The translations under genes and the position numbers were made by a program. Shown piece after piece: positions 516-34,153 of a DNA stretch of 64,000 nt (position 1 is its first letter; each line of letters opens with the position of its first letter). The DNA is taken from the NCBI GenBank assembly GCA_019429305.1, contig JAHYIR010000009.1:1837-65836 (forward strand), given 5' to 3'. This stretch comes from Candidatus Cloacimonadota bacterium (GTDB taxonomy: Bacteria > Cloacimonadota > Cloacimonadia > Cloacimonadales > JAJBBL01). The notes beneath the pieces were generated by a model. It had not been told where the DNA came from, made no database searches, and was given only the letters and a program-made list of their open reading frames with translations.

Positions 516-569
516 ATTAAGATAGGCAATAAGTTAGAAGCTTAAACAAAAATTAATGTGGAGGAAAAA

Positions 570-860
570 ATGAGTAAGAGAGATGCTTATGTAAAGAAGG
601 CGAAGGTTCAGATTGATAAGTTTAATGATAAGATTAGTAAATTAGAAGAAAAAGCTAAACATGTGAGTGAAGATGCTAAGTCAAAATATGAATCCAAGAT
701 ACAAGATGTAAAGAAAAGTATCGAAACAATTAAAAGCAAAATAGCTGATATCCAGGAATCTGGAGAAGATTCCTGGAATGAATTAAAGCATGGTATTGAT
801 GAATCATGGAGTGCTTTGAAAAAGGGGATAAAGGAAGCTAAGTCCAAGCTTAAACATTGA
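570..860 (+). CDS. Small Lys/Glu-rich coiled-coil protein, function unknown
   Basis: ORF-track entry is 558..860. The ATG at 570 follows a GGAGG at 561-565, so I prefer 570 over the GTG at 558. The sequence is heptad-like and charged (KISKLEEKAKHVSEDAKSKYESKIQDVKK). No family recognised. Confidence 0.6.
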   Translation: MSKRDAYVKKAKVQIDKFNDKISKLEEKAKHVSEDAKSKYESKIQDVKKSIETIKSKIADIQESGEDSWNELKHGIDESWSALKKGIKEAKSKLKH

Positions 861-1186
861 TGGCTTAGCAATATAACCACTAAAAATTTTTACTATCGAT
901 TTGGAAGATTAATTGCTTCAAATAAGAATGATTTGATAAATAAATGGTTATATAGACATTGCAGTGACATAATACAAGGAATAATTAGCGGTTCGAGAGA
1001 CTCGTAAGAACAAGATATAAGACAATTCGTTTTGATACTAACAGAGGGTCAAAAATTGATTTATAGGGTCATTCTGTCTATATTACTGATAGATAACAGA
1101 CATGAAAAGTTCATTATTGTTGAATGAAGATTTTGGTTAAGGTAAGAGAAAATAGTTTAGAAATAGATAACGGAGGAAATAAGATT

Positions 1187-4100
1187 ATGAAGATGAAACC
1201 AATGTTGATATTAATGTTAACATTATTGACAGTAAGTTTTATATTAGCAACACCACCATTCATGTGGGATGAGAACGGTATTCCTATCAGGCAAGGTGTA
1301 AATATTGAATGGTCCAGAGCATCAGCAGTTTTGGACAATGGAACTGTCATCTATGTCTGGTCAGACACCAGATATGGAGGAAGAGACCTTTGGGCACAAG
1401 CAGTAGACGAAACTGGAGTACTTTGGGGTCCATCGGGAGTTATGGTTGACGGTAAAGATGATAGGCAAGAAGACCCTGTAGTGATCAAAACCAGTGATGG
1501 CAATGCGATTATTGCTTGGATAGATTTTCATTTCGATTCGGTTAATGGTGGAGTATTTGCGCAGAAGATTAATCCACAGGGAGAACTACTATGGGATGAG
1601 AGTGTTCCGTTATGTTTAGCTGACGGAGTACAGATATCATTAAACATAGTTCCCGATAATGACGGTGGAGCTTACATTATATGGCAAGATCAACGTTCAG
1701 GAACGATTGATATATATGGAGTTCACATAGATAGTGATGGTAATAATTATCCAGGCTGGCCGGAGAATGGACTGGCATTGGCTTCCGGACCCGGTAACCA
1801 GCAAAATCATACCTTCTGGGAAGACGGACAGGGTGGAGCAATCCTGGCTTATGTTAATCAAGATTCAGGAATTGAAGATATATATGTTTTAAGAGTTTTA
1901 TCTGATGGAGAAATAGCGTGGTCTTATCCTTTAGCAACCGGTAATCAGGAACAGCAAAGTGTAAGAATGTCTCCCTTTGGAGCAAATGCTTTTGGTTTTG
2001 CCTATACAGATGCTATAAATGGGAACAGGAATATATATGTAAAAGCTATTGATATCGCCGGAAATTTTTTATGGAATGGTGATGCAATTGGTATCAACCC
2101 GGATTTTTATCTGCAAGTAAACCCCCGAGTTGCTGCCTCTGCAGATGGTAATTTTATTGTTGTCTGGGAAGATTGGGCTGAAGGATCATCAGATCTAGCT
2201 ATTCAAAAACTTGATATTAACGGCGATTTCTTATGGGGTCAGAGACCTATGGTCATAGTGACTGATGAGAATAACCAAAAAAATCCCCGTATTGAAGGGG
2301 ATGCAACCGGTGGTTGTTATGTTGTCTGGGATGATGCCAGAGGAATCGGTCATCCTGAAGTAGATATTTATATGCAGCATGTTACTGTTGATGGCGATAT
2401 TTCTTGGGAAGAAAATGGTCGACCAGTTGCTCAGGTTCCCGGAGAAACTTTTGCGCCTCTGATTAAACCAATTGGTGATAATATCATCGTTGTTTGGGGT
2501 GATATGCGGACAGGATCTATTGGAATCTACTATCAAGCTTATGATCTGGCAGGGAATGCTGTGCTACAGGATAATGGAATTCCGGTGTATTGGGGGTTAA
2601 GTGGTGATGCTACAGAACATGTAGCAGTACACAGTGGAGATTATGTTTATGTTATCTGGGAAGATTCGCGTTATGCAAATTTTGGCAATCAGATCAAAGT
2701 CCAGAAGATCGATAGTTCTGGTAATGCACTTTTTGAAGAGAACGGAATTTCGATTGTTGATGGGCATTCTGGAACTCATCAAACCTCGTTTCGAGTTATA
2801 CCTTACCACGAGGGTGGATTAGCGCTAACTTGGACTGAACAACCGGAAGAGTTTGATCTGGTTTATGTCCAAGCAATTGATGCCAATGGTAACCTTTTAT
2901 GGGGTGACTTTGGAGTACGACCTTCGACTTTAGATTTTAATTTTTCTCAGGCCTACCCTAATGTCCCAAGAATATCCTATGACGGAAATGGCGGATATAT
3001 TGTTGCTTGGGATGAAACAGATCAGTTAGGGGGCTTTATTCGGAACATTAAGGCACAACGTATAGTTAACGGACAGAGAGTATGGGATGATGAAGGCATT
3101 ACAATTGCTTATCAGACTGGATCACCAGTTAATCATTTCTTAGAAAGCGTAACGGAAAGATATTTTGTTTGGTTTAGAGGTGGTGGAGCTGATCTTTATG
3201 TTAAAAGATTGAATGAAGATGGAACAGTAGCTGACGGTTGGGATGACTATGGAAACCTGATCTGCACTGCTCCTTCTAATAGAAGATTATCCAAATCTGT
3301 CTTAACTCCTGAAGGTCTATTGATAGTATGGGAAGATAACAGAGGTGGTACATCCAGTATTTACGGTCAGCTGATAAATGAAAATGGTCAGGTTCAGTGG
3401 CAAGAGAATGGTATTCCTCTTATCGATTATGATAACGATCAATCAATAATAAGTATCGAATATGATGATGGATATTTCTATCTCAGTTGGCGTGATGCCC
3501 GATTAGATCCGGGAGCTCAAGATGTGGCAATGCAGAAATTTGATCTAAACAGTAATTCGCAATGGGGAGATCCCTCACCATTTGTCGTTAGTAATCAGTT
3601 TGAGCAAGACAATCCAAATATGGCTAAGATAGGTGATAATCTGCTTATTGCCTGGGAGAATAATTATGGCGAGATTGGATCTGATCTATTCATCCAATTA
3701 GCAAATGCGCAGAATGGCGATCTTTTATGGGCTGTCGATGGTGAAACTCTCTGTGATGCTGAGAAGAGACAGATTATGGCTAAGATCGTACCATTTGATA
3801 ATCAATTTGGTTTCGTTGTTTGGTCAGACCTTAGATCAAGCGGAAAAGAGGACATCAAAGGTTTATATGCGCAAAAAATAGATGCAACTTTTTCCAATAC
3901 TGATGAAATAACTATCAAACCAACTGATCATCTGCAGCTTTACGCTAATTATCCTAATCCTTTTAATCCGGAAACGAATATCTCTTTCGATTTAGCTCGT
4001 AACGATTATGTCTCATTAAAGATCTATAACCTAAAGGGACAATTAGTAAAAACACTCATTGACAACGAGTATTTGGCTCGCGGTAGTTACCAGCTTGTTT

Positions 4101-4207
4101 GGTCAGGGACTGATAATAGTAACAAAGCTGTCGGTAGTGGTGTTTATTTCTACAAAATGGAGAGTGATAACATTAGCCAAGTAAGAAAAATGCTCTTATT
4201 GAAATAG
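1187..4207 (+). CDS. Large secreted repeat protein (about 16 tandem ~55-aa repeats) with T9SS type-A / FlgD-Ig-like C-terminal sorting domain
   Basis: ORF is 1124..4207. The ATG at 1187 follows a GGAGG at 1172-1176 and gives MKMKPMLILMLTLLTVSFILA, a signal peptide. The body is an iterated W-x-D-x-R ... D-I-Y-x-Q ... D-x-x-G-x-x-x-W motif. The C-terminus is NYPNPFNPETNISFDL...GVYFYKM...LLLK. Confidence 0.85.
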   Translation: MKMKPMLILMLTLLTVSFILATPPFMWDENGIPIRQGVNIEWSRASAVLDNGTVIYVWSDTRYGGRDLWAQAVDETGVLWGPSGVMVDGKDDRQEDPVVIKTSDGNAIIAWIDFHFDSVNGGVFAQKINPQGELLWDESVPLCLADGVQISLNIVPDNDGGAYIIWQDQRSGTIDIYGVHIDSDGNNYPGWPENGLALASGPGNQQNHTFWEDGQGGAILAYVNQDSGIEDIYVLRVLSDGEIAWSYPLATGNQEQQSVRMSPFGANAFGFAYTDAINGNRNIYVKAIDIAGNFLWNGDAIGINPDFYLQVNPRVAASADGNFIVVWEDWAEGSSDLAIQKLDINGDFLWGQRPMVIVTDENNQKNPRIEGDATGGCYVVWDDARGIGHPEVDIYMQHVTVDGDISWEENGRPVAQVPGETFAPLIKPIGDNIIVVWGDMRTGSIGIYYQAYDLAGNAVLQDNGIPVYWGLSGDATEHVAVHSGDYVYVIWEDSRYANFGNQIKVQKIDSSGNALFEENGISIVDGHSGTHQTSFRVIPYHEGGLALTWTEQPEEFDLVYVQAIDANGNLLWGDFGVRPSTLDFNFSQAYPNVPRISYDGNGGYIVAWDETDQLGGFIRNIKAQRIVNGQRVWDDEGITIAYQTGSPVNHFLESVTERYFVWFRGGGADLYVKRLNEDGTVADGWDDYGNLICTAPSNRRLSKSVLTPEGLLIVWEDNRGGTSSIYGQLINENGQVQWQENGIPLIDYDNDQSIISIEYDDGYFYLSWRDARLDPGAQDVAMQKFDLNSNSQWGDPSPFVVSNQFEQDNPNMAKIGDNLLIAWENNYGEIGSDLFIQLANAQNGDLLWAVDGETLCDAEKRQIMAKIVPFDNQFGFVVWSDLRSSGKEDIKGLYAQKIDATFSNTDEITIKPTDHLQLYANYPNPFNPETNISFDLARNDYVSLKIYNLKGQLVKTLIDNEYLARGSYQLVWSGTDNSNKAVGSGVYFYKMESDNISQVRKMLLLK
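1265..3886 (+). repeat. Coding tandem repeat array, about 16 units of 50-62 aa
   Basis: Units delimited by eye include YVWSDTRYGGRDLWAQAVDETGVLW, IIWQDQRSGTIDIYGVHIDSDGN, VVWEDWAEGSSDLAIQKLDINGDFLW, VVWDDARGIGHPEVDIYMQHVTVDGDISW, VVWGDMRTGSIGIYYQAYDLAGN, VIWEDSRYANFGNQIKVQKIDSSGNALF, IVWEDNRGGTSSIYGQLINENGQVQW, LSWRDARLDPGAQDVAMQKFDLNSNSQW and VVWSDLRSSGKEDIKGLYAQKID. Confidence 0.75.
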
Positions 4208-4271: not shown

Positions 4272-6608
4272 TTGCATAGAATATTTTTTATAATGTTAAT
4301 CATTATACTAAGCAGCGCTTTAGGAGCACAATATCTGCCTATACCTGATTTTTACCATCGGTATGATGATATCCTCGATAAACTCTTTCTCTGGCAAGAT
4401 ATCTATCCGGATACGGTCATGGTGCAACAAATAGGTTATTCACAAGAAGACGATATACCAATCTACGCTGTTAAAGTGTCATCAAATGTACAAGTAAACG
4501 AAGATAAACCGGCAATTTTAATAATTGGGCAGGTACATGCAGAAGAGATTTTGGGAATTGAGGTCATAATGTATCATATTGAAGAGATACTTCAATATCG
4601 TATGGCACCACCCTATAGTCAATGGTTATCAGATCTGGAACTTTGGTTTATCCCAACTCTCAATCCTGAAGGATTACAGGTTGTTATGGATGACTGGGAT
4701 GTTACATATCGTAAGAATAAACGCGACAACAACGGCAACGGGATTTTTGATTATGTGCCCGGTATAGGACAAGATATTGATGGTGTAGATCTCAATAGGA
4801 ATTTTGATTTTAACTGGGTGCATGGAGATACATTATATCATCCAGGAGGCAATGAACCATTTGACTATTATCGAGGCCCATATCCGATGTCAGAGGGAGA
4901 GATTGAAGCATTACTAAACCTGCTTGACCAACAACATTTCGTTTACTCTATAGTCTGGCATTCTTCCAGAACCGGCAATTTCTCTGAAAAGGTCTTTTAT
5001 TCTTATGATTGGTATAATGTTCGTCCATCACCCGATTATTACTTAGCACAATCAATTGGGCAAGGGGTAGCTAGCCAGATAAGGAAATATGGGAGTTCAT
5101 TATTCTATGAAAATCTACCTTCGTTAGGAAGAACAGGTAATGCTCATGACTGGTTTTATAAAGAATATGGCACAATTCAGCTCTTGGTAGAATGTGGTAC
5201 ATCTAATATCCAACCACAAAGTGAAGCACAGATGTTGTCAATCGTTTCAGAAGCAAAAAAAGGTCAAAGATGGCTCTTCAATCGTGCCCTTAATGGTTAT
5301 TTATCACAAAGTCCTATGTTAACCGGTCATATTCGAGATGCAACAACAAACCAGCCATTACAAGCAGAGGTTATCATCGAACAACATCATGGTAGATTTC
5401 TCACTCCACGAATGAGTGATCAACTTTACGGCAGGTATTGGCGACCATTGCTTGCTGGTATATATACAGTAACTATTAGAAAAGAGGGTTATGAAACACA
5501 GATAATTGAAGGTGTGGCTGTTAATAATTCCGCTTGGAGAATCCTCAACATTGATCTAGTCAAAAAAGCAGAAACTGTTTTTACCGGAACAGTTCTTATG
5601 GAAAATAACCCAGTAGATGCAGAAATTATTCTGACTGATATAGAAGATCACAAAATAATAGTTGAAGATGGTTCCTTTATATATGATACTTATGCAGGTG
5701 AAAGAAGGATTTTGATCACTGCCGACGGCGCTTATCCATATATTGGAACGATTTATCTGGAACCGGGGCATCATGATATCGAGATCAACTTAAGTGAAGA
5801 ACACTTGATTTTTATGGAAGACTGGGACACGGGTTGTTGTCTCTGGATTATAGATGGTCCGTGGCAGACTATCAGCGAAAATTCAATGTCCGGTTTAGCA
5901 ATGACTGACAGTTGGGATGGTGGCAAGAACTTCTATGCACCAAACACTGATACTTATATAACAACCAATTTTCCAATAAATTTGATTTCTTATATACCAC
6001 CTTATTATCAGACCCCTTATCTGATTTTCTGGCAGCATTTATATACTGAATGGGATCATGATTTTGTTTACGTACAAGCATCTCCTGATCTCTATGCAGA
6101 TCCTGAAGATTGGATTACTGTCTATAAGAATTCAGGTAAGTTTGATTGCTGGCATCCTGTTTATGTTTCCTTAGAACCATTAGTCGGAGAAGAATTTTAT
6201 CTACGATTTAGGTTAACTTCCGATTCACCTGATAGCCGGTTAGTTGATCCGGGTTGGATAATAGACGACCTTAAGATCATAGCCGGAAATGCTTCATTAA
6301 CTAGCATCGATTCCGATGATTTGGAAGTTCCATCTCCGAAGATCGTACTAAATCAAAACTATCCCAATCCCTTTAATCCACAAACAGTTATATCTTTCTC
6401 AATCACCAAACCTGATTTGGAAACTGCTGAAATCACAATATTTAATATCAAAGGGGCTTTGGTTGATCATATTAGATTAAGCGATGAAGATATCAAGCAG
6501 GGACAAATTGTATGGGAAGCAGGACAGCGCGCCAGTGGTGTTTACTTTTACCGTCTTTCCGTTAATGGAAAACATAAAGACATAAAAAAAGCAGTGTTAA
6601 TTAAATAG
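4272..6608 (+). CDS. M14-family zinc carboxypeptidase with carboxypeptidase-regulatory-like and MAM-like domains and a T9SS-type C-terminal domain
   Basis: TTG start at 4272 after AAAGGAG, with signal peptide MHRIFFIMLIIILSSALGA. The HxxE zinc motif is GQVHAEEILG, followed by DLNRNF and VWHSS. A CarboxypepD_reg-like stretch reads LTGHIRDATTNQPLQAEV...GIYTVTIRKEGYE. The C-terminus is NYPNPFNPQTVISFSI...GVYFYRL...VLIK. Confidence 0.85.
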   Translation: MHRIFFIMLIIILSSALGAQYLPIPDFYHRYDDILDKLFLWQDIYPDTVMVQQIGYSQEDDIPIYAVKVSSNVQVNEDKPAILIIGQVHAEEILGIEVIMYHIEEILQYRMAPPYSQWLSDLELWFIPTLNPEGLQVVMDDWDVTYRKNKRDNNGNGIFDYVPGIGQDIDGVDLNRNFDFNWVHGDTLYHPGGNEPFDYYRGPYPMSEGEIEALLNLLDQQHFVYSIVWHSSRTGNFSEKVFYSYDWYNVRPSPDYYLAQSIGQGVASQIRKYGSSLFYENLPSLGRTGNAHDWFYKEYGTIQLLVECGTSNIQPQSEAQMLSIVSEAKKGQRWLFNRALNGYLSQSPMLTGHIRDATTNQPLQAEVIIEQHHGRFLTPRMSDQLYGRYWRPLLAGIYTVTIRKEGYETQIIEGVAVNNSAWRILNIDLVKKAETVFTGTVLMENNPVDAEIILTDIEDHKIIVEDGSFIYDTYAGERRILITADGAYPYIGTIYLEPGHHDIEINLSEEHLIFMEDWDTGCCLWIIDGPWQTISENSMSGLAMTDSWDGGKNFYAPNTDTYITTNFPINLISYIPPYYQTPYLIFWQHLYTEWDHDFVYVQASPDLYADPEDWITVYKNSGKFDCWHPVYVSLEPLVGEEFYLRFRLTSDSPDSRLVDPGWIIDDLKIIAGNASLTSIDSDDLEVPSPKIVLNQNYPNPFNPQTVISFSITKPDLETAEITIFNIKGALVDHIRLSDEDIKQGQIVWEAGQRASGVYFYRLSVNGKHKDIKKAVLIK

Positions 6609-6629: not shown

Positions 6630-9600
6630 ATGTTGAAACATATATTAATGTTATTATCAGTAATATTGGTCTTTTCTCTTAGTGCTATCCATCAAGATAT
6701 TATACAAACTTCACAGAGTTCTGTAAATATCCAGATTAGTACAAATAGAGAAGAGATAAATGAAGAGACAATTTCACATACAGTAGCTTTATTGGCTGAA
6801 GATGCCCATATAGAGATAAATAGCATGCAAATTGCTACTTATAATAGTAATGGTGACTTGATCGAAAGGGATAGTGTAATTGATTCAGACCGAGTACGAT
6901 TAATTAATCAATTTACTATGAGAGAGATGTATGGGTTTACATCTGCAGTAGAACTGGTAAAAGAAGAAAGTAATTTTAAATCTGTCATTGAAGAATTGAA
7001 TTATAACATTGTCGGGACTGGGAATAGAACTATACCAGAAGAGATTAGTGAGGCATTTTATCCTGTTTATAAATCACTCGCTCTGAATTTTGACTCTTCA
7101 TATTTAGTTAATCTACCTTTCAAACAACCGGCAATGATGATCATTAGTCACGATAGCGCTCAGATAACTAATACTTTAGAACCATTTATTAGATGGAAAA
7201 GAGCAACAGGCATGGAAATCACAGTAGTTAACAGAACAGATATTGGTGCTAATCCAACCAATAATATGATCAGGAATTACGTTATCAATTATTATCAAAC
7301 TACTGATAACAAACCTGAGTATTTACTTTTGATTGGTGGTGCTCGAACAGGAGCTTCATTACCAATACCGACATTCTACACTGGGGCCGCTAATAATGCT
7401 AATGATCTGCCTTATGGATTGATTGAAGGTGATGATTATTTCCCAGAAGTAATGGTTGGACGTTTCTCGGTGAATAACAGCTATCAGCTGGCAACGATAG
7501 TTAATAAAACAGTTGCTTATGAGAAAGAACCATTCATGGATGAGACCGAATGGATGGAAAGAGCAATTGTAATTGCCGGCAATTACGCATCAACTTTACC
7601 GATCCCTATTACTCCGGTTCTGATGTCAAAGTGGCTAGTGGAGTTACTTTATGAGAGTGGATATACTGAAGTAGATACTGTTTTCTGGTATCCCGGTTCA
7701 TCATCATTGACACAGCCGGTCATTGATGCTGTCAATAGAAGCGGGCAATATATAAACTACCGAGGTTGGGGTGATGCAAACGGGTGGCATTATCCGTTGT
7801 TTCATATCAATCATTTAGCTAATACTAATGCTGGTAGAAAATCTCCAGTTGTATCATCATTCGTTTGTAATACAGGTGACTTTATTAATTCTAACGTTAA
7901 TCCATGTTTTGGTGAATATTGGATGACCATGGGTACTCCAACCACTCCAAACGGGGCAGTTGGCTTTGTTGGTCCCAGTGATCTTCATACTAGTACTGAA
8001 TATAACAATGCGATTGCTTCCGGTTATCACTGGGGGATTCAAAGGGAAGGCATTAGATCTTTCGGAGCTGCTATTCTAAGGGGTAAAATGGAAATTTATA
8101 ATGGCTACCCGAATAATCTGGATCCCGGTGATTGGGTTGATTTCTATTTCAGGGTCTACAATACTCTGGCAGATCCGTCGCTCAATTTATGGAAATTGAT
8201 ACCTTATCATATGAATCTGACACTACCTACTCAAATTGATCAGGGGACAAACTATCTGGAATTTGATGCTCCTAACTTAACAGGTGGATATGTTACGATA
8301 ACTCGTGATGAAGAAAATTTTATTACTCACCGAATAGAAAATGATTATGCTTTTATTCCTCTTAATCCAGATGAAGAGGGAGATATCATTCTAACGGTTA
8401 CTGCTAAGAATTATTTGCCTACAATACAGACGATTGAGATTACTTCTTCAAATAACATCACATTACTCGAATATGATTTTGCCGGTACGGCTATTTATCC
8501 CGGTGAAACTATTACACTTAACACTACACTCAAAAATTATAGTAATAATAATGTCGCTGATGTTTCAGCCACATTGAGTAGTAATTTTGAAGATTTTATC
8601 ACAATTACAGAAGAGACTGTTAATTATGGAGATATTAGTGCAGGAGGGACTGCATCTGGTAGCTTCGAGTTTGAAATAGCAGGGAATTGTCCTCATCACA
8701 CAGTGCTACAATTTACGTTAAATATTTCACCTACTGGTGATGTCGCAAAATTACAGGTATTGGTTGTTGGTATTCATATAGAAGTTGATGGTTTTGTAAT
8801 TAACTCTCCTAATAGTATTTTAGACCCAGGAGAAACAGCAACTATTGACGTAACAATTAGTAATCATGGCATATCTGATCTTTTAAATCTCAGCACAGTT
8901 ATAGAACCTTATACTGATGCTGTATATATAAGTGAAGATATGGTCAATATAGGAGATATATCTGCTGGAGAATCAAGCACTTTTTCCTTTGAAGTAGTAG
9001 TTCATGACGATACCTATGTTGGAAGAGAAGCATATTTTAAGTTGAATTTTTTTGATGCTGATGGAAGGTTTACTTACGCATTCATTAACACAACAATAGG
9101 GGAAGTAACCAATACAGCGCCTACAGGTCCATGTTATTATGGCTATTACGCCTTTGACAGTTATGATACCGATTATAGTCAAGCACCTTTGTATAACTGG
9201 GTTGATATTGATCCTGATAATGGTGGACCCGGAACGGCTGTCTGGTTACCGGATGATGGCACTATGACAATGGATATGCCTTTCACTTTTCGCTATTATG
9301 GTATCGATTATAATGAAATTTCTATCTGTTCTAACGGTTGGATTACATTCATCCCTACTGAGGAAATTAATTTCCGTAATTGGCCTATACCATCAGCAAT
9401 AGTACCTAAGGGTATAATAGCCCCCTACTGGGACGACTTGAAAGGTTTAGATGAAGTTGATAATGAGCTTCGAGTTGCCTACTATCATGATGAGATAAAT
9501 AACAGAATGATCATCAGTTGGTTAGATGCCTATAGTGTAGCTAATTTGACACCCAGTGGTTTGGAAAAGATACAGGTAATTCTTGAACCTAAAGCTGATG

Positions 9601-10106
9601 ATGATGGAGATATTATTTTTCAGTATCACACTGTCTGGAACCAGAATCATACCCGTAATTATTCAACAACAGGTATTATGAACCACACCAGATTCGTAGG
9701 TTTACAGTATGCCTATGCTAATCATTATCCTCTTTCAGCTACGCCAATACAGGCAGGTTTAGCTATACGCTTTACAACTTCTGCACCAGACGAATATTAT
9801 TCTACAGATGATTTGATCAATCCCAATCTTGGATTAACTCTCTTCCAAAATTACCCGAATCCTTTCAACCCCGAAACAGTTATTGAGTTCTCTTTACCCA
9901 ATAGAAGCTTCGTTACTCTTGATGTTTACAACATCCTCGGGCAGAAAGTAAAAACTCTCGTTGATAGAGAATTAGATTTCGGACTACATAGATTTGTCTG
10001 GAATGGAACAGATCATTCAGGAAAAAGTGTAGGTAGTGGAGTCTATCTCTATAGGTTATCTACTCCGGATGAAACAGAAGTACGTCGTATGATCCTGATC
10101 AAGTAA
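6630..10106 (+). CDS. Peptidase C25 (gingipain-like) family protein with T9SS-type C-terminal domain; the catalytic His position is occupied by Trp
   Basis: Signal peptide is MLKHILMLLSVILVFSLSA. It aligns by eye with gingipain RgpB across the catalytic domain (YLLLIGG, EVMVGRFS, YINYRGWGDANGW versus ANYTGHGSETAW, SSFVCNTGDF versus FDVACVNGDF, ADPSL). The C-terminus is NYPNPFNPETVIEFSL...GVYLYRL...ILIK. Confidence 0.85.
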   Translation: MLKHILMLLSVILVFSLSAIHQDIIQTSQSSVNIQISTNREEINEETISHTVALLAEDAHIEINSMQIATYNSNGDLIERDSVIDSDRVRLINQFTMREMYGFTSAVELVKEESNFKSVIEELNYNIVGTGNRTIPEEISEAFYPVYKSLALNFDSSYLVNLPFKQPAMMIISHDSAQITNTLEPFIRWKRATGMEITVVNRTDIGANPTNNMIRNYVINYYQTTDNKPEYLLLIGGARTGASLPIPTFYTGAANNANDLPYGLIEGDDYFPEVMVGRFSVNNSYQLATIVNKTVAYEKEPFMDETEWMERAIVIAGNYASTLPIPITPVLMSKWLVELLYESGYTEVDTVFWYPGSSSLTQPVIDAVNRSGQYINYRGWGDANGWHYPLFHINHLANTNAGRKSPVVSSFVCNTGDFINSNVNPCFGEYWMTMGTPTTPNGAVGFVGPSDLHTSTEYNNAIASGYHWGIQREGIRSFGAAILRGKMEIYNGYPNNLDPGDWVDFYFRVYNTLADPSLNLWKLIPYHMNLTLPTQIDQGTNYLEFDAPNLTGGYVTITRDEENFITHRIENDYAFIPLNPDEEGDIILTVTAKNYLPTIQTIEITSSNNITLLEYDFAGTAIYPGETITLNTTLKNYSNNNVADVSATLSSNFEDFITITEETVNYGDISAGGTASGSFEFEIAGNCPHHTVLQFTLNISPTGDVAKLQVLVVGIHIEVDGFVINSPNSILDPGETATIDVTISNHGISDLLNLSTVIEPYTDAVYISEDMVNIGDISAGESSTFSFEVVVHDDTYVGREAYFKLNFFDADGRFTYAFINTTIGEVTNTAPTGPCYYGYYAFDSYDTDYSQAPLYNWVDIDPDNGGPGTAVWLPDDGTMTMDMPFTFRYYGIDYNEISICSNGWITFIPTEEINFRNWPIPSAIVPKGIIAPYWDDLKGLDEVDNELRVAYYHDEINNRMIISWLDAYSVANLTPSGLEKIQVILEPKADDDGDIIFQYHTVWNQNHTRNYSTTGIMNHTRFVGLQYAYANHYPLSATPIQAGLAIRFTTSAPDEYYSTDDLINPNLGLTLFQNYPNPFNPETVIEFSLPNRSFVTLDVYNILGQKVKTLVDRELDFGLHRFVWNGTDHSGKSVGSGVYLYRLSTPDETEVRRMILIK

Positions 10107-12832: not shown

Positions 12833-15230
<2,398 letters not shown>

Positions 15231-15442: not shown

Positions 15443-16804
15443 ATGATGTCCAAGATTTTGATCATCGATGATGATATCGAGATAGTTGGAGTTTTAGAGA
15501 ATATAATTGAGCAAAGCATTCCTAATTCTACTATTTATTCGTCTTTAGATGGATTAGTTGGCATGCAGATGATTAGAAAACATGAACCAGATTTGATCAT
15601 CTTAGATATCAATTTGCCTTCAGTTAGTGGCCATACAGTTTGTCGCACATTGAAATCTGATCCTTTGCTCAAGAACATCCCGATTTTGATTATTACGGGG
15701 GAGAGTTCTAATCTCAATGCTAAAGTAAAGAGTTTAGAACAGGGAGCAGAAGCTTTTCTGAAAAAACCTTTTGATATTCCTGAATTTATTGCTCAAGTTC
15801 AGTCATTGTTAAGACTGAAAGAAGCGGAAGACATAATACGAAAAGAACGCGATCTTTTAAAGATTGACGTTAAGTTGAAAGAGAAGGAATTGGAGCAGCA
15901 TTTTCAACATATTGAGCTTCTTTTCCGAGCTTTTATTGAAGTGATGGCAACATCTATTGATGCTTTGTCCATTTACAATTATGAAAGCACTCAAAGAGTA
16001 GCTGAGATGGTTAAGAATTTTCTTGTATTCATTAGTAAAGATAGTCCGGATAAATATCATCAACTTAGTCAGGATAATGAACGTCAAGAGAATCTAATTA
16101 TGGCTGCTTGGTTACATGATATCGGTAAGATAACAGTTCCATTGAGGTTAATGAATAAATTTACCAGATTAGGTGATCGCTTCCCAGAAGTAATTCAAAA
16201 GTTGGATGCGGTATATTATTATTTGAAATCAATAGATGCTGATTCCGCTTTGATAAGTAAATGTATAAAGGCATCAGAGTTAGTAAAACGGCTAAATGAT
16301 CCACAAAACAAAGTAAAAGAGAGTGATATCAAATTGTTAAAAGAATATGCTAATTTGTCCTATGTTGATCCGGCAGATGAAAAAAAACAGTGGTTAACAG
16401 ATCAAGAAGTAGAATCTCTCAGTATTAAACAGGGTACTCTGACCGAAAGTGAGCGAAAAGAGATTGAGAATCACGTTCGATTAACTGACCTGTTACTAAG
16501 TAAAATACCTTTTTCTCCTGATAAGCTCGAAATCCGTAAATGGTGTAATGATCATCATGAATTGCTTGATGGCTCGGGATACTATCAGGGTCTGAAAGGA
16601 GATGAAATATCTACAGAAACAAGAATATTGACTATTATTGATATATTCGAGGCGTTGATTTCTAATGAACGACCTTATAAAAAACACCGAACAATTGAAG
16701 AAGCTCTCATGGAGTTGGAGAAGATGGCCAGTAATGGTAAATTAGACTCTGAATTAGTCATGTTATTTAAAAAAAGTAAGGCATGGGAAATAACCGATGA
16801 ATAA
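15443..16804 (+). CDS. Response regulator (REC domain) fused to an HD-GYP-type phosphohydrolase domain
   Basis: The ATG at 15443 (or 15446) follows AGGAG at 15435-15439. The REC domain reads KILIIDDD...DLIILDINLP...KP. The HD-GYP domain has WLHDIGK and HHELLDGSGYYQG, a GYY variant of GYP. Confidence 0.8.
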   Translation: MMSKILIIDDDIEIVGVLENIIEQSIPNSTIYSSLDGLVGMQMIRKHEPDLIILDINLPSVSGHTVCRTLKSDPLLKNIPILIITGESSNLNAKVKSLEQGAEAFLKKPFDIPEFIAQVQSLLRLKEAEDIIRKERDLLKIDVKLKEKELEQHFQHIELLFRAFIEVMATSIDALSIYNYESTQRVAEMVKNFLVFISKDSPDKYHQLSQDNERQENLIMAAWLHDIGKITVPLRLMNKFTRLGDRFPEVIQKLDAVYYYLKSIDADSALISKCIKASELVKRLNDPQNKVKESDIKLLKEYANLSYVDPADEKKQWLTDQEVESLSIKQGTLTESERKEIENHVRLTDLLLSKIPFSPDKLEIRKWCNDHHELLDGSGYYQGLKGDEISTETRILTIIDIFEALISNERPYKKHRTIEEALMELEKMASNGKLDSELVMLFKKSKAWEITDE

Positions 16805-18215
16805 AGAAAAGAAGAAAACAGATTACCGAAAGATCCCTTCAGTAAACCGGATTATACTTTCTGATATTTTGTCTGATTATCGAACCAAGATTAGAGCTCC
16901 GATTTTAAAGAGGATTGTTAGTTCTAAACTTGAACAAATACGTGAAGAGATAGTTAAAGGTAACTTAGTACCAGAAGAAACAACTATTGTAAAAGAGATT
17001 AAAGAACATATTAATAAACTCTTGCGTTCATCTCTAAGTCCTGTAATTAATGCAACCGGTGTCATTTTGCATACAAATTTAGGACGAGCACCATTTGATG
17101 ATAAGATCTTGACTGAGATAATTCCCGTACTAAATGGATACAGTAATCTGGAATTTAATCTCTTAACAGCTCAGCGTGGCAGTAGAAATGTACATCTTAA
17201 TGAGCTGTTAAAAGTGCTCTTGAACTGTGAAAATAGTGTTGTGGTAAATAATAATGCAGCTGCATTAATGCTCACATTGAGAACTTTAGCTGCTGACAAA
17301 GAGGTTATAATCTCGAGGGGTGAATTAGTTGAAATAGGTGGTAGTTTTAGGATCCCTGAAATAATAGAAGCAAGTGGAGCTAAGTTGATCGAAGTAGGTA
17401 CTACGAATAGAACTCGGCTCAGTGATTATGAGAAAGCAATCACCGAAAATACAGCCCTCTATCTCAAAGTACACAAATCAAATTACTATATGTATGGATT
17501 TACGGAAGAAGTTTCTCTAAAAGAGCTTTCTAAATCAGCAAAAAAAAATCATCTTAATTTGATATATGATTTAGGTACCGGTCTCATAGACAGGCAATTG
17601 TATAAGGGTATGGAGAATGAACCAGATGCTTTGAATGGTTTGCAGGATGGAGCTGATGTTATAACTTTCAGTTGCGATAAATTACTGGGAGGAGCTCAAG
17701 CTGGTATAATTGCTGGCAGGAATAAATTTATTCAACCCATATCGAAACATCCTATGATGCGGGCATTAAGAGTCGATAAGTTGACTATAAGTCTCTTAAA
17801 TAAGGTTCTGATATCATTCCTTCATGAAAAATCTTTTATCGAGGAGTATAATCCGGTTTTTCGCTATATAAACCGTGAAATGGAAGAGATTGAAACACTA
17901 GCAAAAGCTCTCACCAGTAAACTTAAAAGTCGATATCTTGATGTTACTATCCTTGATAGTAAAGCTCAATGTGGTGGTGGAACTCTTCCATATCATTTTA
18001 TTGATAGCAAGATAGTAAAGATAACTCCAAAAGGTTGTCCAGCGAGTGTTAAAAAAAGTTTTGCAGAGAATTTGTATCATAAATTGTTAACCTCTGATGT
18101 CCCAGTATTAGGTATTTTAAGGGAAGGAACATTAATGTTTGATGTCTTAGCTCTGGAAAATAAGGATATAGAATTAATAGGTAAAAGTGTAAAACAGTTG
18201 ATACCATTTTGGTAG
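16797..18215 (+). CDS. selA: L-seryl-tRNA(Sec) selenium transferase
   Basis: Strong collinearity with E. coli SelA: PVINATGVILHTNLGRA, VVNNNAAALML, ISRGELVEIGGSFRIPE, EVGTTNRT, the PLP-lysine region FSCDKLLGGAQAGIIAG, and RALRVDKLT. The start overlaps the upstream stop by 8 nt. Confidence 0.95.
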   Translation: MNKEKKKTDYRKIPSVNRIILSDILSDYRTKIRAPILKRIVSSKLEQIREEIVKGNLVPEETTIVKEIKEHINKLLRSSLSPVINATGVILHTNLGRAPFDDKILTEIIPVLNGYSNLEFNLLTAQRGSRNVHLNELLKVLLNCENSVVVNNNAAALMLTLRTLAADKEVIISRGELVEIGGSFRIPEIIEASGAKLIEVGTTNRTRLSDYEKAITENTALYLKVHKSNYYMYGFTEEVSLKELSKSAKKNHLNLIYDLGTGLIDRQLYKGMENEPDALNGLQDGADVITFSCDKLLGGAQAGIIAGRNKFIQPISKHPMMRALRVDKLTISLLNKVLISFLHEKSFIEEYNPVFRYINREMEEIETLAKALTSKLKSRYLDVTILDSKAQCGGGTLPYHFIDSKIVKITPKGCPASVKKSFAENLYHKLLTSDVPVLGILREGTLMFDVLALENKDIELIGKSVKQLIPFW

Positions 18216-18281: not shown

Positions 18282-20225
18282 ATGAAACATCTTATCATGG
18301 GTACTGCTGGACATATTGATCATGGCAAAACAACTCTGATCAAACAATTGACCGGCTATGACTGTGATACTCACAAAGAAGAGAAAGAACGTGGCATAAC
18401 GATCTATCTGGGCTTTAGCCATTATACATTGTCGAACGGCAATACTATCGGAATTGTTGATGTACCCGGACATAGCGATTTCATCAATACAATGATAGCT
18501 GGTGCATCCGGAATTGATTTTGTTTTGCTGGTTATAGCGGCTGATGCCGGTATAATGCCACAAACCTTAGAGCATCTCCGGATCATGGGTATGCTGGGTA
18601 TTAAAAAAGGGATGATCGTCATCACTAAAACTGATTTGGTTGAACACGAGTATCTGCAGCTGATAACAGAAGATGTAGCTGAATTAGTAAAGGGGACATT
18701 TTTGGAGAAGTCTCCTATAATCAATTTTTCTGCAGTTACAGGTGAGGGATTACCAGAGATCATTGCAGCTCTTGAGGGAATTGAAAGTGAGATACTACCA
18801 CGACCCAATGACGAAGTTTTCCGATTGTATATTGATAGAGTGTTTAATATAACTGGTTTTGGTACAGTAGTAACCGGAACAGTACAAAGTGGTCACATCA
18901 ACAAAGATAGCAAACTTTATCTGCTACCTAAAGCAGAAAAAGTTAGGATCCGCAGATTAGAAAGATATGGTAAAGAAGTATCTGAGTTAACAGCAGGAGA
19001 TCGAGGGTCTATCAATTTAGCCGGTATTGATCGAAGCAAGATCACTAGGGGGATGTTAGTTACCGATAGAGTTTTGCAGGACACAAAATTAGTCGATGTA
19101 AAACTCTCTTTATTCCCGGAGGGGGGAGAGCTACCTTTGTGGTCGCAATGTATTTTCTTACACGGAACAGAGCAGTTTGAAGTAAGAGTTCATCTTCTGG
19201 ATACTGATAAACTTCAATCGGGTAATGAGTCAATAGCTCAGATACATTTCAAAAACTCACTCTATGCTTGTTATGGTGATAGATTTGTTATCAGAAACAG
19301 TTCTGCCGATAAGACAATTGGTGGGGGAGAGATAATTGATGTTAAACCGTTACATCATCGCCGTAGAACTGCTAAACTCTTATCTAATCTACAACGGATC
19401 CTATTAGGTAATTTAGAGGAGCTAATTGCTGCTGAAGTAAGGAAAAACGTCAATCCTTTATCTATAGAGTATTTAGCCGGTACATTTAACAAACCGGTTT
19501 CCGAATTACTCAAAATCGTAGATTCTTCTCTGCCGGAAGATATAGTAGTAGTAAGTTCTCAAGATGAGCTGTTTCTTCAAGAACAAAAAAGGTATATAAA
19601 AACAAGAAACAAGATCATTAACAATCTCACAACCTATCATAAGAATAATCCATTAGAAGAAACTGGTAGAAGTTTTGACGAGTTAATGGGTCTTTATGGA
19701 AAAGATAGAGATGAGGGTCTAGAAAAATATATAGAAATTGTTTTAGCTGATTTAGTGTCTCAGAAACAGTTAAAGAAAGTTGATAACACGTGGACTTTAT
19801 ATACTCATAATGTCAAATTTAGTGAAGAACTGGCAAATCAAGTGTACTTTGTTGAAAACTACCTACTCGATTCAGGAATGAAGACCCCTCTAATGTCTGA
19901 ACTATTACCGGCAGCGGAGAAGAAGGGTATAGATGAAAAATTACTTTATCAGATCCTCAAGCTCCTAGTTTATAGAAAAAAAGCTTACCGGATAGAAGAT
20001 AATTATATTCATAGTGATATCGTAGATAAATGCCGTATCAAGTTGTTAGAGAGTTTGTTGAATAAAAAAGAGGGAATTACAGTTGCTGAATACAGAGATA
20101 TCATTTCCGGTAACAGGAAAATTTGTTTATTGCTGTTAGCTCGCTTCGATGGTGAGGGGATAACTATCCGTAAGGGAGATTATCGGATCATAACTGAAAA
20201 AGGTCGCAAGTTACTGTTTAGTTAA
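18282..20225 (+). CDS. selB: Selenocysteine-specific translation elongation factor
   Basis: The N-terminal GTPase has GTAGHIDHGKTTL, DVPGH and TKTD. A long winged-helix C-terminal extension typical of SelB follows. It sits next to selA. Confidence 0.9.
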   Translation: MKHLIMGTAGHIDHGKTTLIKQLTGYDCDTHKEEKERGITIYLGFSHYTLSNGNTIGIVDVPGHSDFINTMIAGASGIDFVLLVIAADAGIMPQTLEHLRIMGMLGIKKGMIVITKTDLVEHEYLQLITEDVAELVKGTFLEKSPIINFSAVTGEGLPEIIAALEGIESEILPRPNDEVFRLYIDRVFNITGFGTVVTGTVQSGHINKDSKLYLLPKAEKVRIRRLERYGKEVSELTAGDRGSINLAGIDRSKITRGMLVTDRVLQDTKLVDVKLSLFPEGGELPLWSQCIFLHGTEQFEVRVHLLDTDKLQSGNESIAQIHFKNSLYACYGDRFVIRNSSADKTIGGGEIIDVKPLHHRRRTAKLLSNLQRILLGNLEELIAAEVRKNVNPLSIEYLAGTFNKPVSELLKIVDSSLPEDIVVVSSQDELFLQEQKRYIKTRNKIINNLTTYHKNNPLEETGRSFDELMGLYGKDRDEGLEKYIEIVLADLVSQKQLKKVDNTWTLYTHNVKFSEELANQVYFVENYLLDSGMKTPLMSELLPAAEKKGIDEKLLYQILKLLVYRKKAYRIEDNYIHSDIVDKCRIKLLESLLNKKEGITVAEYRDIISGNRKICLLLLARFDGEGITIRKGDYRIITEKGRKLLFS

Positions 20226-33053: not shown

Positions 33054-34106
33054 ATGAACGATAACAAGTGGATCAAAATCTCTCTCGGCATTATTGCTAT
33101 GACAATCATAGTAGTAATCCTCAAAGAATTAAGGTCAATATTCATCCCCTTAACTTTTGCTATATTTTTGACTTTTATCTTTGCACCGCTCAATACTGCT
33201 CTTTATAAAAGAAAGATACCTAAATTGATTGCTATTCTAATAATGATGACGATCATCTTTGTTTTCTTTGCTTTGATCCTGTTCATTTTTTACTCGGCTA
33301 TCTATTCCTTGATCATTGAGTTCCCTAAATATCAAGAGAAGATGATTGAACTAATAAATCAATCATATGCTAGTTTACAGGAATGGATTTTGAAAATGGA
33401 AGGAGTTTTTTCCAAAATGCCAGATTGGTTTAATCAGGTTCAAATTTTATCGCCAGGGAGTTTTTCCATTACCCGTTTTGTAACAGGGACAATGGGTACT
33501 TTCTTTGACTTTTTTATAAAACTATTCTTAACATTGATTTTCTTGATCTTCATAGTCGCAGGAATAGATAGATTAGGTAATCGAGTAAAGAAAGTACTGA
33601 CTGAGAGTCGTAATAAACAAACACTTAAGTTGATTAATAATATTCAACTTCAAATGACAAAATACTTTCTGAATAAGACATTGATTAGTTTAGGCACCGC
33701 ATTGACCGGTATGTTATTTATGTTGCTCTTCAAGATCGACTTTATTCTGATGTCAGGGATTCTCTTATTTGTTCTGAATTTTATCCCCAATATCGGTTCG
33801 TTTGTTGCCTCTGCTTTTCCAATATTTATCTGCTTGCTACAATACGGATTTGGTTGGCAGTTTATTGGTATTACGATTAGTTTGACCATGACTCAAATGG
33901 TATTTGGGAATATTTTAGAACCTAGTTTAATGGGTGAAAAACTTAATCTCTCCCCGATAATTGTCTTGATCTCACTTATCTTTTGGGGTTGGGTATGGGG
34001 AGCTGTCGGTATGATTCTGGCAATACCAATAACATCAGCAATAAACATTATCATCAAAGAAGTAAACGAATTTAGCATCATATCAGCTATCATAAGCGAC
34101 GAATAA
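33054..34106 (+). CDS. AI-2E family transporter (PerM/UPF0118)
   Basis: A polytopic membrane protein of about 8 TM helices with the family-typical C-terminal block NFIPNIGSFVA...GNILEP.LMG..L.LSP....SLIFWGWVWG.VGMILAIP. Confidence 0.8.
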   Translation: MNDNKWIKISLGIIAMTIIVVILKELRSIFIPLTFAIFLTFIFAPLNTALYKRKIPKLIAILIMMTIIFVFFALILFIFYSAIYSLIIEFPKYQEKMIELINQSYASLQEWILKMEGVFSKMPDWFNQVQILSPGSFSITRFVTGTMGTFFDFFIKLFLTLIFLIFIVAGIDRLGNRVKKVLTESRNKQTLKLINNIQLQMTKYFLNKTLISLGTALTGMLFMLLFKIDFILMSGILLFVLNFIPNIGSFVASAFPIFICLLQYGFGWQFIGITISLTMTQMVFGNILEPSLMGEKLNLSPIIVLISLIFWGWVWGAVGMILAIPITSAINIIIKEVNEFSIISAIISDE

Positions 34107-34153
34107 GTTAGTCATCTTTCACTGATTTTATAGCTTATAATATTGCAAGCGTT

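What the first reader, a model, noticed from the sequence alone, without database searches (positions are those of the whole stretch)
1265..3886. About 16 tandem copies of an unrecognised ~55-aa W-x-D-x-R / D-I-Y-x-Q / D-x-x-G-x-x-x-W repeat in a T9SS-tagged protein
Almost the whole mature protein is one repeat type. The consensus by eye is W..NG.......... (P) .... DG..IVVW.D.R.G..DIY.Q.ID..G...W, with spacing of 50-62 aa. Sixteen units would fit two 8-bladed, or other multi-bladed, beta-propellers. The repeat does not match the WD40, Kelch, YWTD, FG-GAP or PQQ signatures as I know them. The conserved W-x-D-x-R followed by an aromatic-Gln strand is distinctive. Because it carries a T9SS-type tail, the protein is probably surface-displayed, so it is a candidate ligand- or substrate-binding platform.
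Basis: seen in the sequence. Interest (0 to 1): 0.55.

Follow-up and report, generated by a model that had tools for sequence, protein, structure and literature searches.

The report
Sixteen-blade double beta-propeller surface protein
The gene encodes a secreted protein of an uncultured Cloacimonadota bacterium, built from 16 copies of one beta-propeller blade (probably two eight-bladed rings); the repeat is real and widespread, it is already catalogued as a repeat type of unknown function, and no solved structure or tested function exists for it.

Summary
ORF 1124-4207 (+) holds 16 tandem units of 50-60 aa at aa 46-921 (nt 1259-3886), and each unit is found by a profile built from the other 15.

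- AlphaFold2 gives an all-beta model (pLDDT 92) with four strands per unit.
- Units 1-8 alone fold as one compact domain (pTM 0.92).
- Relatives carry 8, 16 or 24 units. Together these points support two eight-bladed propellers followed by a type A T9SS C-terminal domain.

The repeat is not wholly unrecognised:
- It has no Pfam model and no PDB relative by sequence.
- It is a divergent, below-cutoff member of NCBIfam repeat TIGR04275 (45.9 bits against a cutoff of 85).
- More canonical relatives found with the window's own repeat profile pass that cutoff.

The 16-unit module is very widespread (57,672 cluster representatives). It occurs in Cloacimonadota, Margulisiibacteriota, Krumholzibacteriota, Kiritimatiellia, Chloroflexota and one Asgard archaeon, and every named example is "hypothetical".

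The window protein belongs to a full-length ortholog group found across Cloacimonadota. In 42 of 68 evaluable loci an M14 carboxypeptidase gene with a T9SS tail lies directly downstream, usually with a gingipain-like C25 peptidase gene nearby.

Most likely role (inferred, not shown): a surface-displayed, non-catalytic binding platform linked to extracellular proteolysis.

The parts
1124..4207 (+). Longest ORF of the 16-repeat protein (1027 aa). An identical protein is on record as 'MAG: T9SS type A sorting domain-containing protein [Candidatus Cloacimonetes bacterium]'.
   Evidence: P0001, 100% identity
1171..1189 (+). Probable ribosome-binding site GGAGGA (1171-1176) and probable true start codon ATG (1187-1189). 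This start gives a protein of 1006 aa.
   Evidence: The sequence was read. Homologues are about 1000 aa long and align from query residue about 16-23.
1187..1249 (+). Sec-type signal peptide MKMKPMLILMLTLLTVSFILA (aa 22-42 of the long ORF).
   Evidence: It has a basic N-terminus followed by a hydrophobic core. AF2 models a lone helix at 24-41 with low confidence. No dedicated signal-peptide predictor was available.
1259..3886 (+). Sixteen tandem blade repeats (aa 46-921). Unit limits in nt: 1259-1429, 1418-1597, 1595-1744, 1754-1924, 1922-2077, 2066-2239, 2255-2410, 2402-2566, 2567-2737, 2729-2905, 2909-3088, 3083-3229, 3236-3403, 3392-3568, 3560-3730, 3725-3886.
   Evidence: HMM iteration; leave-one-out and shuffle controls; four beta-strands per unit in the AF2 model.
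1259..2575 (+). Propeller 1 (units 1-8, aa 46-484). It is the more conserved half. Blades 1-3 carry blade-specific invariant polar residues: R56, E62, W63, R65, S80-D81-T82, R87, R114-Q115-E116-D117, N174.
   Evidence: The fragment model has pLDDT 94.2 and pTM 0.92. In Foldseek its best TMq values, 0.52-0.56, are to 7- and 8-bladed propellers.
2564..3886 (+). Propeller 2 (units 9-16, aa 481-921; inferred). It is less conserved, and units 11 and 12 are the most divergent.
   Evidence: Full-length model; unit-against-unit scores; conservation. This half was not modelled on its own.
3887..3949 (+). Linker between the propellers and the C-terminal domain. Residues 927-934 have pLDDT below 50.
3950..4207 (+). 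Type A T9SS C-terminal sorting domain (aa 943-1027, a beta-sandwich), followed by the stop codon.
   Evidence: Pfam PF18962 33.4 bits and PF13860 32 bits; TIGR04183 31.6 bits. The family profile hits the PorU C-terminal domain in 6za2 at E 2e-4 and FlgD Ig domains.
4272..6608 (+). Downstream gene, 65 nt after the stop: M14 zinc carboxypeptidase with a CarboxypepD_reg domain and a T9SS tail. It is probably in the same operon.
   Evidence: Pfam. No terminator-like site lies in the gap. The same gene sits directly downstream in 42 of 68 evaluable Cloacimonadota loci.
6630..10106 (+). Next gene, 22 nt further on: gingipain-like C25 cysteine peptidase with CARDB/Ig domains and a T9SS tail.
   Evidence: Pfam Peptidase_C25 E 1.6e-55. 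The best PDB matches are gingipain R (1cvr, E 3e-32) and Kgp; PorU is not among the hits. A C25 gene is nearby in 36 of the 42 loci that carry the M14 gene.

Best explanation
What it is (well supported): a secreted protein of a Cloacimonadota bacterium. It has a Sec signal peptide, then 16 four-stranded beta-propeller blades of the TIGR04275 ('beta_prop_Msarc') repeat class, which most likely form two rigid eight-bladed propellers. A short linker and a type A T9SS C-terminal domain follow.

How it most likely works (inferred):
1. The protein crosses the inner membrane by the Sec pathway.
2. The C-terminal domain takes it through the type IX secretion system.
3. The C-terminal domain is then cut off, and the protein is either anchored on the cell surface or released.
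4. Outside the cell the double propeller acts as a non-catalytic binding platform. It would work with the co-transcribed M14 carboxypeptidase and gingipain-like C25 protease, either by capturing protein or glycoprotein substrates or by organising the proteases on the surface of this amino-acid-fermenting organism.

The blade-specific invariant polar residues of blades 1-3 of propeller 1 are the likely ligand site.
For: Repeats and fold:
- The repeats are real.
- The full-length model has pLDDT 92 and pTM 0.81, with four strands per unit.
- Units 1-8 alone give pTM 0.92.
- Foldseek TMq rises with the blade number of the target: 5-bladed GH43 0.32, 6-bladed sialidases 0.40-0.44, 7- and 8-bladed propellers 0.52-0.56. 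Blade numbers of the targets are from my own knowledge.
- The best full-length structural matches are multi-propeller proteins: EMC1 (TMq 0.37-0.39), PorZ and LRP2.
- Relatives carry 8, 16 (93 of the best 150) or 24 units.

Repeat class: TIGR04275 hits the window protein at E 3.4e-12 and 38 of 48 orthologues; canonical relatives score 129-147 bits against a cutoff of 85.

Secretion: the type A C-terminal domain scores above both curated cutoffs.

Conservation: full-length orthologues at 36-75% identity occur in 80 of the 80 best genome loci, all Cloacimonadota or unnamed. There are 59 invariant columns among 116 sequences.

Link to proteolysis:
- An M14 gene lies directly downstream on the same strand in 42 of 68 loci, and a C25 gene is nearby in 36 of those.
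- The gaps are 65 and 22 nt, with no terminator-like site in them.
- The C25 neighbour is gingipain-like.
- The window also encodes further secreted peptidases: C25, S8, M16 and M12B-like.

Non-catalytic reading: no catalytic family model matches above its cutoff.
Against: - No ligand, partner or activity has been shown.
- 26 of 68 loci, including those named Ca. Cloacimonas (L046, L066, L075, L079), lack the peptidase neighbours, so the linkage is not universal. The Ca. Syntrophosphaera locus L048 holds too little downstream sequence to judge.
- Many structural neighbours of the propeller are carbohydrate-active enzymes or lectins (CV39L, GH145, PL42, sialidases, GH43). A glycan ligand or a catalytic role is therefore just as compatible with the fold.
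- The 8+8 arrangement was inferred without access to model coordinates. No PDB structure reaches TMq above 0.56.
- T9SS machinery was not seen in the window ORFs that were scanned.
Confidence: 0.45

Rival explanations
1. The protein is a glycan-binding lectin or a carbohydrate-active enzyme (a beta-propeller hydrolase or lyase). The conserved polar pocket of propeller 1 would bind or cleave a polysaccharide or glycoconjugate.
For: - The top single-propeller Foldseek matches are the CV39L lectin (TMt 0.60-0.67), GH145 and PL42 rhamnose-glucuronate enzymes, sialidases, GH93, GH43 and ulvan lyase.
- Pfam GH43 gives weak hits in 14 of 48 orthologues (best E 1.9e-8) and 20.3 bits in the window protein.
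- The only PDB hit of the family profile outside the C-terminal domain is a GH43 endo-arabinanase (E 0.075).
- Invariant acidic and basic residues cluster in blades 1-3.
Against: - GH43 is five-bladed and its Pfam cutoff is not reached (20.3 against 32.2 bits).
- TM-scores to all of these enzymes are at most 0.56-0.67, at 10-15% identity, which is what any propeller would give.
- No catalytic residue could be aligned.
- The conserved neighbours are peptidases, not glycosidases.
Confidence: 0.25
2. The protein is an accessory component of the T9SS attachment machinery, analogous to PorZ (two beta-propellers plus a retained C-terminal domain). It would deliver an anchor glycolipid to the sortase.
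For: - The domain layout is the same: two propellers followed by a T9SS C-terminal domain.
- PorZ (5m11) is the fifth-ranked structural match (E 8.4e-13).
- It is a core, mostly single-copy, full-length conserved gene of the phylum, as expected for machinery rather than variable cargo.
- A C25-family gene lies nearby, and PorU is a C25-family protein.
Against: - The NCBIfam PorZ model matches only the C-terminal domain (17.1 bits against a cutoff of 260).
- TMq to PorZ is only 0.26.
- The neighbouring C25 protein matches gingipains R and K. PorU (6za2) is not among its PDB matches at E<=0.01. NCBIfam does give a far-below-cutoff PorU hit for this neighbour (NF033707, 61 of 420 bits, best stretch on its C-terminal domain).
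- The C-terminal domain spans the same length as those of the two neighbouring cargo proteins (81 against 78-81 residues over the same profile positions). The retained domains of PorZ and PorU are longer and carry an extra hairpin (PMC11285876).
Confidence: 0.1
3. The protein is an abundant structural protein of the cell surface (an S-layer-like coat or adhesin) with no specific ligand.
For: - It is conserved across the phylum, large, rigid (pTM 0.81) and exported by the T9SS.
- The same 16-blade module occurs in other phyla fused to Ig-like, PKD, cadherin-like and CARDB domains, which are typical of surface proteins.
Against: - Blade-specific invariant polar residues in blades 1-3 point to a specific site rather than a plain coat.
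- There is no evidence of abundance or self-assembly.
Confidence: 0.15

Closest known systems
NCBIfam/TIGRFAMs TIGR04275 'beta_prop_Msarc' beta-propeller repeat
   Same: It is the same repeat class. The window protein hits at E 3.4e-12, as do 38 of 48 orthologues. Relatives retrieved with the window's repeat profile score 129-147 bits against a cutoff of 85. JGI names some relatives 'beta propeller repeat protein'.
   Different: The window protein scores 45.9 bits, below the curated cutoff. Only 5 of its 16 single units hit at E<1. The model covers about 40 of the roughly 55 residues of a unit. The family has no described function or structure.
PorZ of Porphyromonas gingivalis (PDB 5m11), a T9SS attachment-complex protein
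   Same: The architecture is two beta-propellers followed by a T9SS C-terminal domain. Foldseek gives E 8.4e-13.
   Different: PorZ has seven-bladed propellers of another repeat type (from my own knowledge). Sequence similarity is confined to the C-terminal domain, and TMq is 0.26. The C-terminal domain here has cargo-like length.
EMC1 lumenal domain (PDB 8eoi, 7ado), a double beta-propeller
   Same: It gives the best full-length TM-scores (TMq 0.37-0.39, TMt 0.39-0.42). I recall it as two eight-bladed propellers.
   Different: It is a eukaryotic ER membrane protein at 10-11% identity, with PQQ-like blades. There is no functional link.
Seven-bladed propeller lectins and enzymes (CV39L 6gxs; GH145 5mul; PL42 7esn; CylK 7roo)
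   Same: These are the best single-domain structural matches to units 1-8 (TMq 0.47-0.56).
   Different: They have fewer blades, identity is 10-15%, there is no sequence-level relationship, and no catalytic residues could be matched.
Gingipain and CPG70 system of P. gingivalis (C25 protease, M14 carboxypeptidase and non-catalytic adhesin domains, all T9SS cargo)
   Same: The gene trio here has the same parts: a non-catalytic beta-rich protein, an M14 carboxypeptidase and a gingipain-like C25 protease, each with a T9SS tail.
   Different: In P. gingivalis the adhesin parts are haemagglutinin/cleaved-adhesin domains fused to the gingipains, not a propeller protein (from my own knowledge). No interaction has been shown here.

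Membership tests
T9SS type A cargo (proteins with a C-terminal sorting domain) | A C-terminal domain of about 80 aa that matches TIGR04183 / PF18962 above the curated cutoff | tested here: met
   TIGR04183 scores 31.6 bits (cutoff 23) and PF18962 scores 33.4 bits (cutoff 27), at aa 943-1024. All 48 orthologues scanned match TIGR04183.
T9SS type A cargo (proteins with a C-terminal sorting domain) | An N-terminal Sec signal peptide | tested here: met
   By inspection: MKMKPMLILMLTLLTVSFILA follows the probable start at 1187. AF2 models a lone helix at 24-41. No dedicated predictor was run.
T9SS type A cargo (proteins with a C-terminal sorting domain) | T9SS machinery encoded in the same genome | not testable with these tools
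   No T9SS core gene was seen among the window ORFs that were scanned. Only 64 kb of the genome is available. The literature lists Cloacimonadota among phyla that may have a T9SS (PMC11285876).
TIGR04275 beta_prop_Msarc repeat protein | Whole-protein score at or above the curated cutoff of 85 bits | tested here: not met
   45.9 bits, E 3.4e-12.
TIGR04275 beta_prop_Msarc repeat protein | Statistically supported homology of the repeat units to the model | tested here: met
   38 of 48 orthologues hit, best E 9.1e-19. 5 of 16 single units hit, best E 8.8e-5. Relatives found with the window's own repeat profile pass the cutoff.
TIGR04275 beta_prop_Msarc repeat protein | Beta-propeller fold | tested here: met
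   AF2 pLDDT 92 with four strands per unit. All strong Foldseek matches are propellers.
Pfam SBBP (PF06739) / DUF5122 delta-60 propeller repeats | A match to the Pfam repeat model | tested here: not met
   SBBP gives no hit at E<=1 for the window protein or its single units and none at E<=0.01 in 48 orthologues. DUF5122 gives only E 0.037. NCBIfam Lepto_SBBP_lipo hits 4 of 48 and delta_60 hits 1 of 48, all weakly.
WD40, Kelch, YWTD/LDL-B, FG-GAP, PQQ repeats | A match to the family's Pfam model | tested here: not met
   None appears at E<=1 for the window protein or its 16 single units, nor at E<=0.01 in 48 orthologues. The nearest things seen are one single unit with a marginal hit to the WD40-like PD40 repeat (E 0.14) and one orthologue with a weak hit to the WDR35/TULP4 N-terminal beta-propeller model (E 0.0014).
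Glycoside hydrolase family 43 | Pfam PF04616 at or above 32.2 bits, and a five-bladed propeller | tested here: not met
   20.3 bits over 2.6 blades only. There are 16 blades and an eight-unit compact domain. TMq to GH43 structures is 0.32.
PorZ (NF052228) | A match to the equivalog model (cutoff 260 bits) across the propellers | tested here: not met
   17.1 bits, confined to the C-terminal domain (aa 932-1015). The profile against PDB matches 5m11 only at the C-terminal domain, E 0.36.
PorZ (NF052228) | Two beta-propellers followed by a T9SS C-terminal domain | tested here: met
   AF2 models; Foldseek match to 5m11 at E 8.4e-13.
PorZ (NF052228) | An extended, uncleaved C-terminal domain with an extra beta-hairpin | tested here: inconclusive
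   The C-terminal domain spans 81 residues over Pfam positions 2-73. The two neighbouring cargo proteins span 78-81 residues over the same positions. Cleavage itself cannot be tested here. The criterion comes from PMC11285876.

The most novel reading that the evidence does not exclude
The roughly 880-aa, 16-blade double propeller is a discrete and ancient module. It is found from Cloacimonadota to Margulisiibacteriota, Kiritimatiellia, Chloroflexota and an Asgard archaeon, and it has no Pfam model, no structure and no known function. In this reading it has a specific, still undiscovered activity, for example a new family of extracellular enzymes or a dedicated receptor for a common polymer. 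The Cloacimonadota version would then be an essential partner of the M14 and gingipain-like surface proteolysis system.
Probability: 0.12. Interest if true: 0.6.

Novelty: new member of a known kind. Interest (0 to 1): 0.33.

Why it matters
Cloacimonadota are abundant fermenters of amino acids and biopolymers in anaerobic digesters and anoxic waters. This protein is a conserved core T9SS cargo of the phylum, and its gene often sits with those of two secreted peptidases.

The repeat class is very large: 57,672 cluster representatives at 50% identity, of which 8,594 have E<=1e-30. It has no Pfam model, no solved structure and no tested function. A structure or a ligand for any one member would annotate tens of thousands of 'hypothetical' surface proteins.

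In itself, however, a beta-propeller surface protein is an ordinary kind of thing, and the repeat is already catalogued in NCBIfam.

Tried and rejected
- PDB sequence searches with the protein, the 16-unit repeat profile and the family profile found nothing for the propeller region. Only the C-terminal domain matched.
- A test for an eight-unit block duplication, using hhalign of each unit's family sub-alignment against every other, gave no i/i+8 signal. There was only a slight 2-6 and 3-7 similarity. It says nothing on domain limits.
- The repeat profile gave no further copies or paralogues elsewhere in the window, in any of six frames.
- The word-indexed protein search with the 57-aa repeat alignment returned a single fragment. 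The prefilter needs shared words, so that search was wasted.
- One search failed because the alignment had too many residues. It was repeated with 48 sequences.
- The first synteny count was wrong, because hits of one C-terminal domain on another stretched the gene end. It was redone with a query lacking that domain.
- Model coordinates are not exposed, so blade packing, the way the ring closes and the position of the conserved residues could not be inspected directly. The 8+8 layout rests on the fragment model, on TM-score trends and on the unit counts of relatives.
- The PorU/PorZ idea for the neighbourhood was rejected, because the C25 neighbour matches gingipains and not PorU.
- Literature searches for Cloacimonadota T9SS cargo, SBBP and TIGR04275 gave nothing on this protein.
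Full report
**1. Observation**

The region lies in one ORF, 1124-4207 on the + strand, 1027 aa.
- I seeded a profile from ten units picked by the IVVW-x-D motif. It recovered 16 units, including six that were not in the seed. Five of those six had i-E between 4e-8 and 6e-13, and unit 12 was weak at 0.002.
- After two iterations all 16 units scored 43-68 bits and tiled aa 46-921, which is nt 1259-3886.
- In a leave-one-out test every unit was found by a profile of the other fifteen (E 5e-8 to 1e-17). In 200 shuffles of the same residues no score exceeded 5.9 bits.
- The units are 19-33% identical to one another, and the DNA shows no tandem repeat. The array is therefore ancient, not a recent expansion.
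- The probable true start is the ATG at 1187, preceded by GGAGGA. That gives a protein of 1006 aa with a typical signal peptide.

**2. Fold**

- I aligned 116 full-length homologues. With this alignment AlphaFold2 gave a confident all-beta model: mean pLDDT 92, pTM 0.81. It has four strands per unit, a disordered linker at 927-934 and a C-terminal beta-sandwich.
- Foldseek against the PDB returned only propeller proteins. The best full-length matches were multi-propeller proteins: LRP2, EMC1 (TMq 0.37-0.39), PorZ (E 8.4e-13, TMq 0.26), Sevenless and DDB1.
- Coordinates are not exposed, so I modelled units 1-8 alone (aa 43-484). They gave pLDDT 94.2 and pTM 0.92, that is, one compact domain.
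- The structural matches of that fragment improve with the blade number of the target: GH43 (5 blades) 0.32, sialidases (6) 0.40-0.44, CV39L, CylK, GH145 and PL42 (7) and DPP-IV (8) 0.52-0.56. Blade numbers of the targets are from my own knowledge.
- Nothing in the PDB is close.
- Independent support for an eight-blade unit comes from relatives (section 4). Of the 150 best, 93 have exactly 16 units, two have 8, two have 24, and none has 18-23.
- I conclude that two eight-bladed propellers is the best reading. It is inferred rather than seen.

**3. Is the repeat 'unrecognised'?**

- Pfam has no model for it. Only the T9SS tail passes a cutoff. GH43 (20.3 bits), DUF5122 and Lipoprotein_15 are weak noise-level hits.
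- PDB sequence searches with the protein, the unit profile and the family profile hit only the C-terminal domain.
- NCBIfam does recognise it. TIGR04275 (beta_prop_Msarc, 'beta-propeller repeat protein') hits at E 3.4e-12 and 45.9 bits, below its cutoff of 85. It also hits 38 of 48 orthologues, best E 9.1e-19, and 5 of 16 single units.
- Five of the eight more canonical relatives tested, all found with the window's own unit profile, pass the cutoff at 129-147 bits; a sixth just misses at 81.9 bits.
- The repeat is therefore a divergent member of a catalogued repeat class of unknown function.

**4. Distribution**

- The identical protein is on record from a Candidatus Cloacimonetes MAG. Hundreds of full-length homologues of about 1000 aa, at about 40% identity, are nearly all from Cloacimonadota wherever a source names the organism; one is labelled Armatimonadetes.
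- In one genome per GTDB species, 177 loci encode a relative. The best 80 are all Cloacimonadota or unnamed. They include Ca. Syntrophosphaera thermopropionivorans, Ca. Cloacimonas, Tenebribacter and Celaenobacter.
- Nearly all of these have 14-16 detectable units. A few genomes carry a second copy.
- Conservation is blade-specific. There are 59 invariant columns, and blades 1-3 are the most conserved (R56, E62, W63, R65, S80-D81-T82, R87, R114-Q115-E116-D117, N174). This is an orthologous, fixed 16-blade protein and not a variable repeat array.
- Beyond the phylum, the unit profile hits 57,672 cluster representatives at E<=1e-3 and 8,594 at E<=1e-30.
- Many of these align with the window protein collinearly over all 16 units at 25-30% identity.
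- Named examples come from Margulisiibacteriota, Saganbacteria and WOR-1 (a family of about 900 aa without a T9SS tail), Krumholzibacteriota (with a T9SS tail), Chloroflexota, Kiritimatiellia and a Hermodarchaeota archaeon. All are 'hypothetical', 'beta propeller repeat protein' or similar.
- Partner domains in these relatives are Ig-like, PKD, cadherin-like, CARDB and T9SS tails, which are extracellular contexts. In the eight relatives scanned, Pfam does not cover the repeat region either.

**5. Context**

- The next two genes on the same strand are an M14 carboxypeptidase with a T9SS tail (4272-6608) and a C25 peptidase with a T9SS tail (6630-10106). The gaps are 65 and 22 nt, and no terminator-like site lies in them.
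- The C25 protein matches gingipain R (E 3e-32) and Kgp, not PorU.
- Of 68 evaluable Cloacimonadota loci, 42 have the M14 gene directly downstream. In 36 of those a C25 gene follows it or lies a few kb upstream. The other 26 loci lack both or, in one case, lack only the M14 gene (an example is).
- The rest of the window encodes further secreted peptidases.

**6. Mechanism**

- Shown: the repeat, the type A C-terminal domain, the propeller fold prediction, the phylum-wide orthology and the conserved neighbourhood.
- Inferred: export by Sec and then by the T9SS, removal of the C-terminal domain, and display on the surface. The double propeller would be a non-catalytic binding platform working with the M14 and gingipain-like peptidases. 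The conserved polar residues of blades 1-3 would be the ligand site.
- Rivals: a lectin or carbohydrate-active enzyme, based on fold neighbours and weak GH43 signals; a PorZ-like T9SS accessory, which has the same architecture but which sequence, C-terminal domain length and neighbour identity argue against; and a plain structural surface protein.

**7. Verdict**

It is a new member of a known kind.

The interest is moderate. It rests on the size and anonymity of the family and on the conserved link to surface proteolysis in Cloacimonadota.

Noticed in passing
window 1124-1189: The longest ORF starts at 1124, but the GGAGGA at 1171-1176 and the homologue alignments point to the ATG at 1187 as the real start. 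The first 21 codons are probably not translated.
   Followed up: partly
window 21257-25108 (-), 48419-50062 (+), 51636-57623 (+), 59635-62187 (+), 45385-48150 (+): The window is rich in large, probably secreted proteins. They include a second C25 peptidase with a gingipain-type propeptide, an M12B/reprolysin-like protein, a 1995-aa S8 subtilase with fn3 and MBG domains, an M16 peptidase, and an FG-GAP/ASPIC repeat protein.
   Followed up: partly
window 16797-18215 and 18282-20225 (+): selA (L-seryl-tRNA selenium transferase) and selB (selenocysteine-specific elongation factor) lie side by side. The organism therefore uses selenocysteine.
   Followed up: no
window 33054-35428 (+) compared with L001 7396-9777 and L002 8391-9662: In two distant relatives a radical-SAM/DUF512 gene lies just upstream of the 16-repeat gene on the opposite strand, joined in L001 by an AI-2E transporter gene. 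In this window the AI-2E transporter and DUF512 pair lies 30 kb away, so the region has been rearranged.
   Followed up: no
L009 1106-4321, L072 11174-14248, L081 (two copies), L062 1158-4055 (-): Some Cloacimonadota genomes carry a second copy of the 16-blade protein, either in tandem or nearby. One (L062) has a much more divergent relative with only 3 detectable units.
   Followed up: partly
proteins P0128, P0140, P0141, P0146, P0196 (3300-7200 aa): Giant proteins carry 40-59 copies of a shorter version of the repeat, matching profile positions about 13-54. They may represent the roughly 40-aa canonical TIGR04275/SBBP-like form.
   Followed up: no
window 12833-13735 (-): A tyrosine recombinase (Phage_integrase with an N-terminal SAM-like domain) lies next to IMP dehydrogenase. 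It is probably a XerC/D-type housekeeping recombinase rather than a mobile element.
   Followed up: no
window 558-860 (+): A small 100-aa lysine- and glutamate-rich coiled-coil protein is encoded upstream of the target gene. It is conserved upstream only in the two closest relatives (L004, L005).
   Followed up: no
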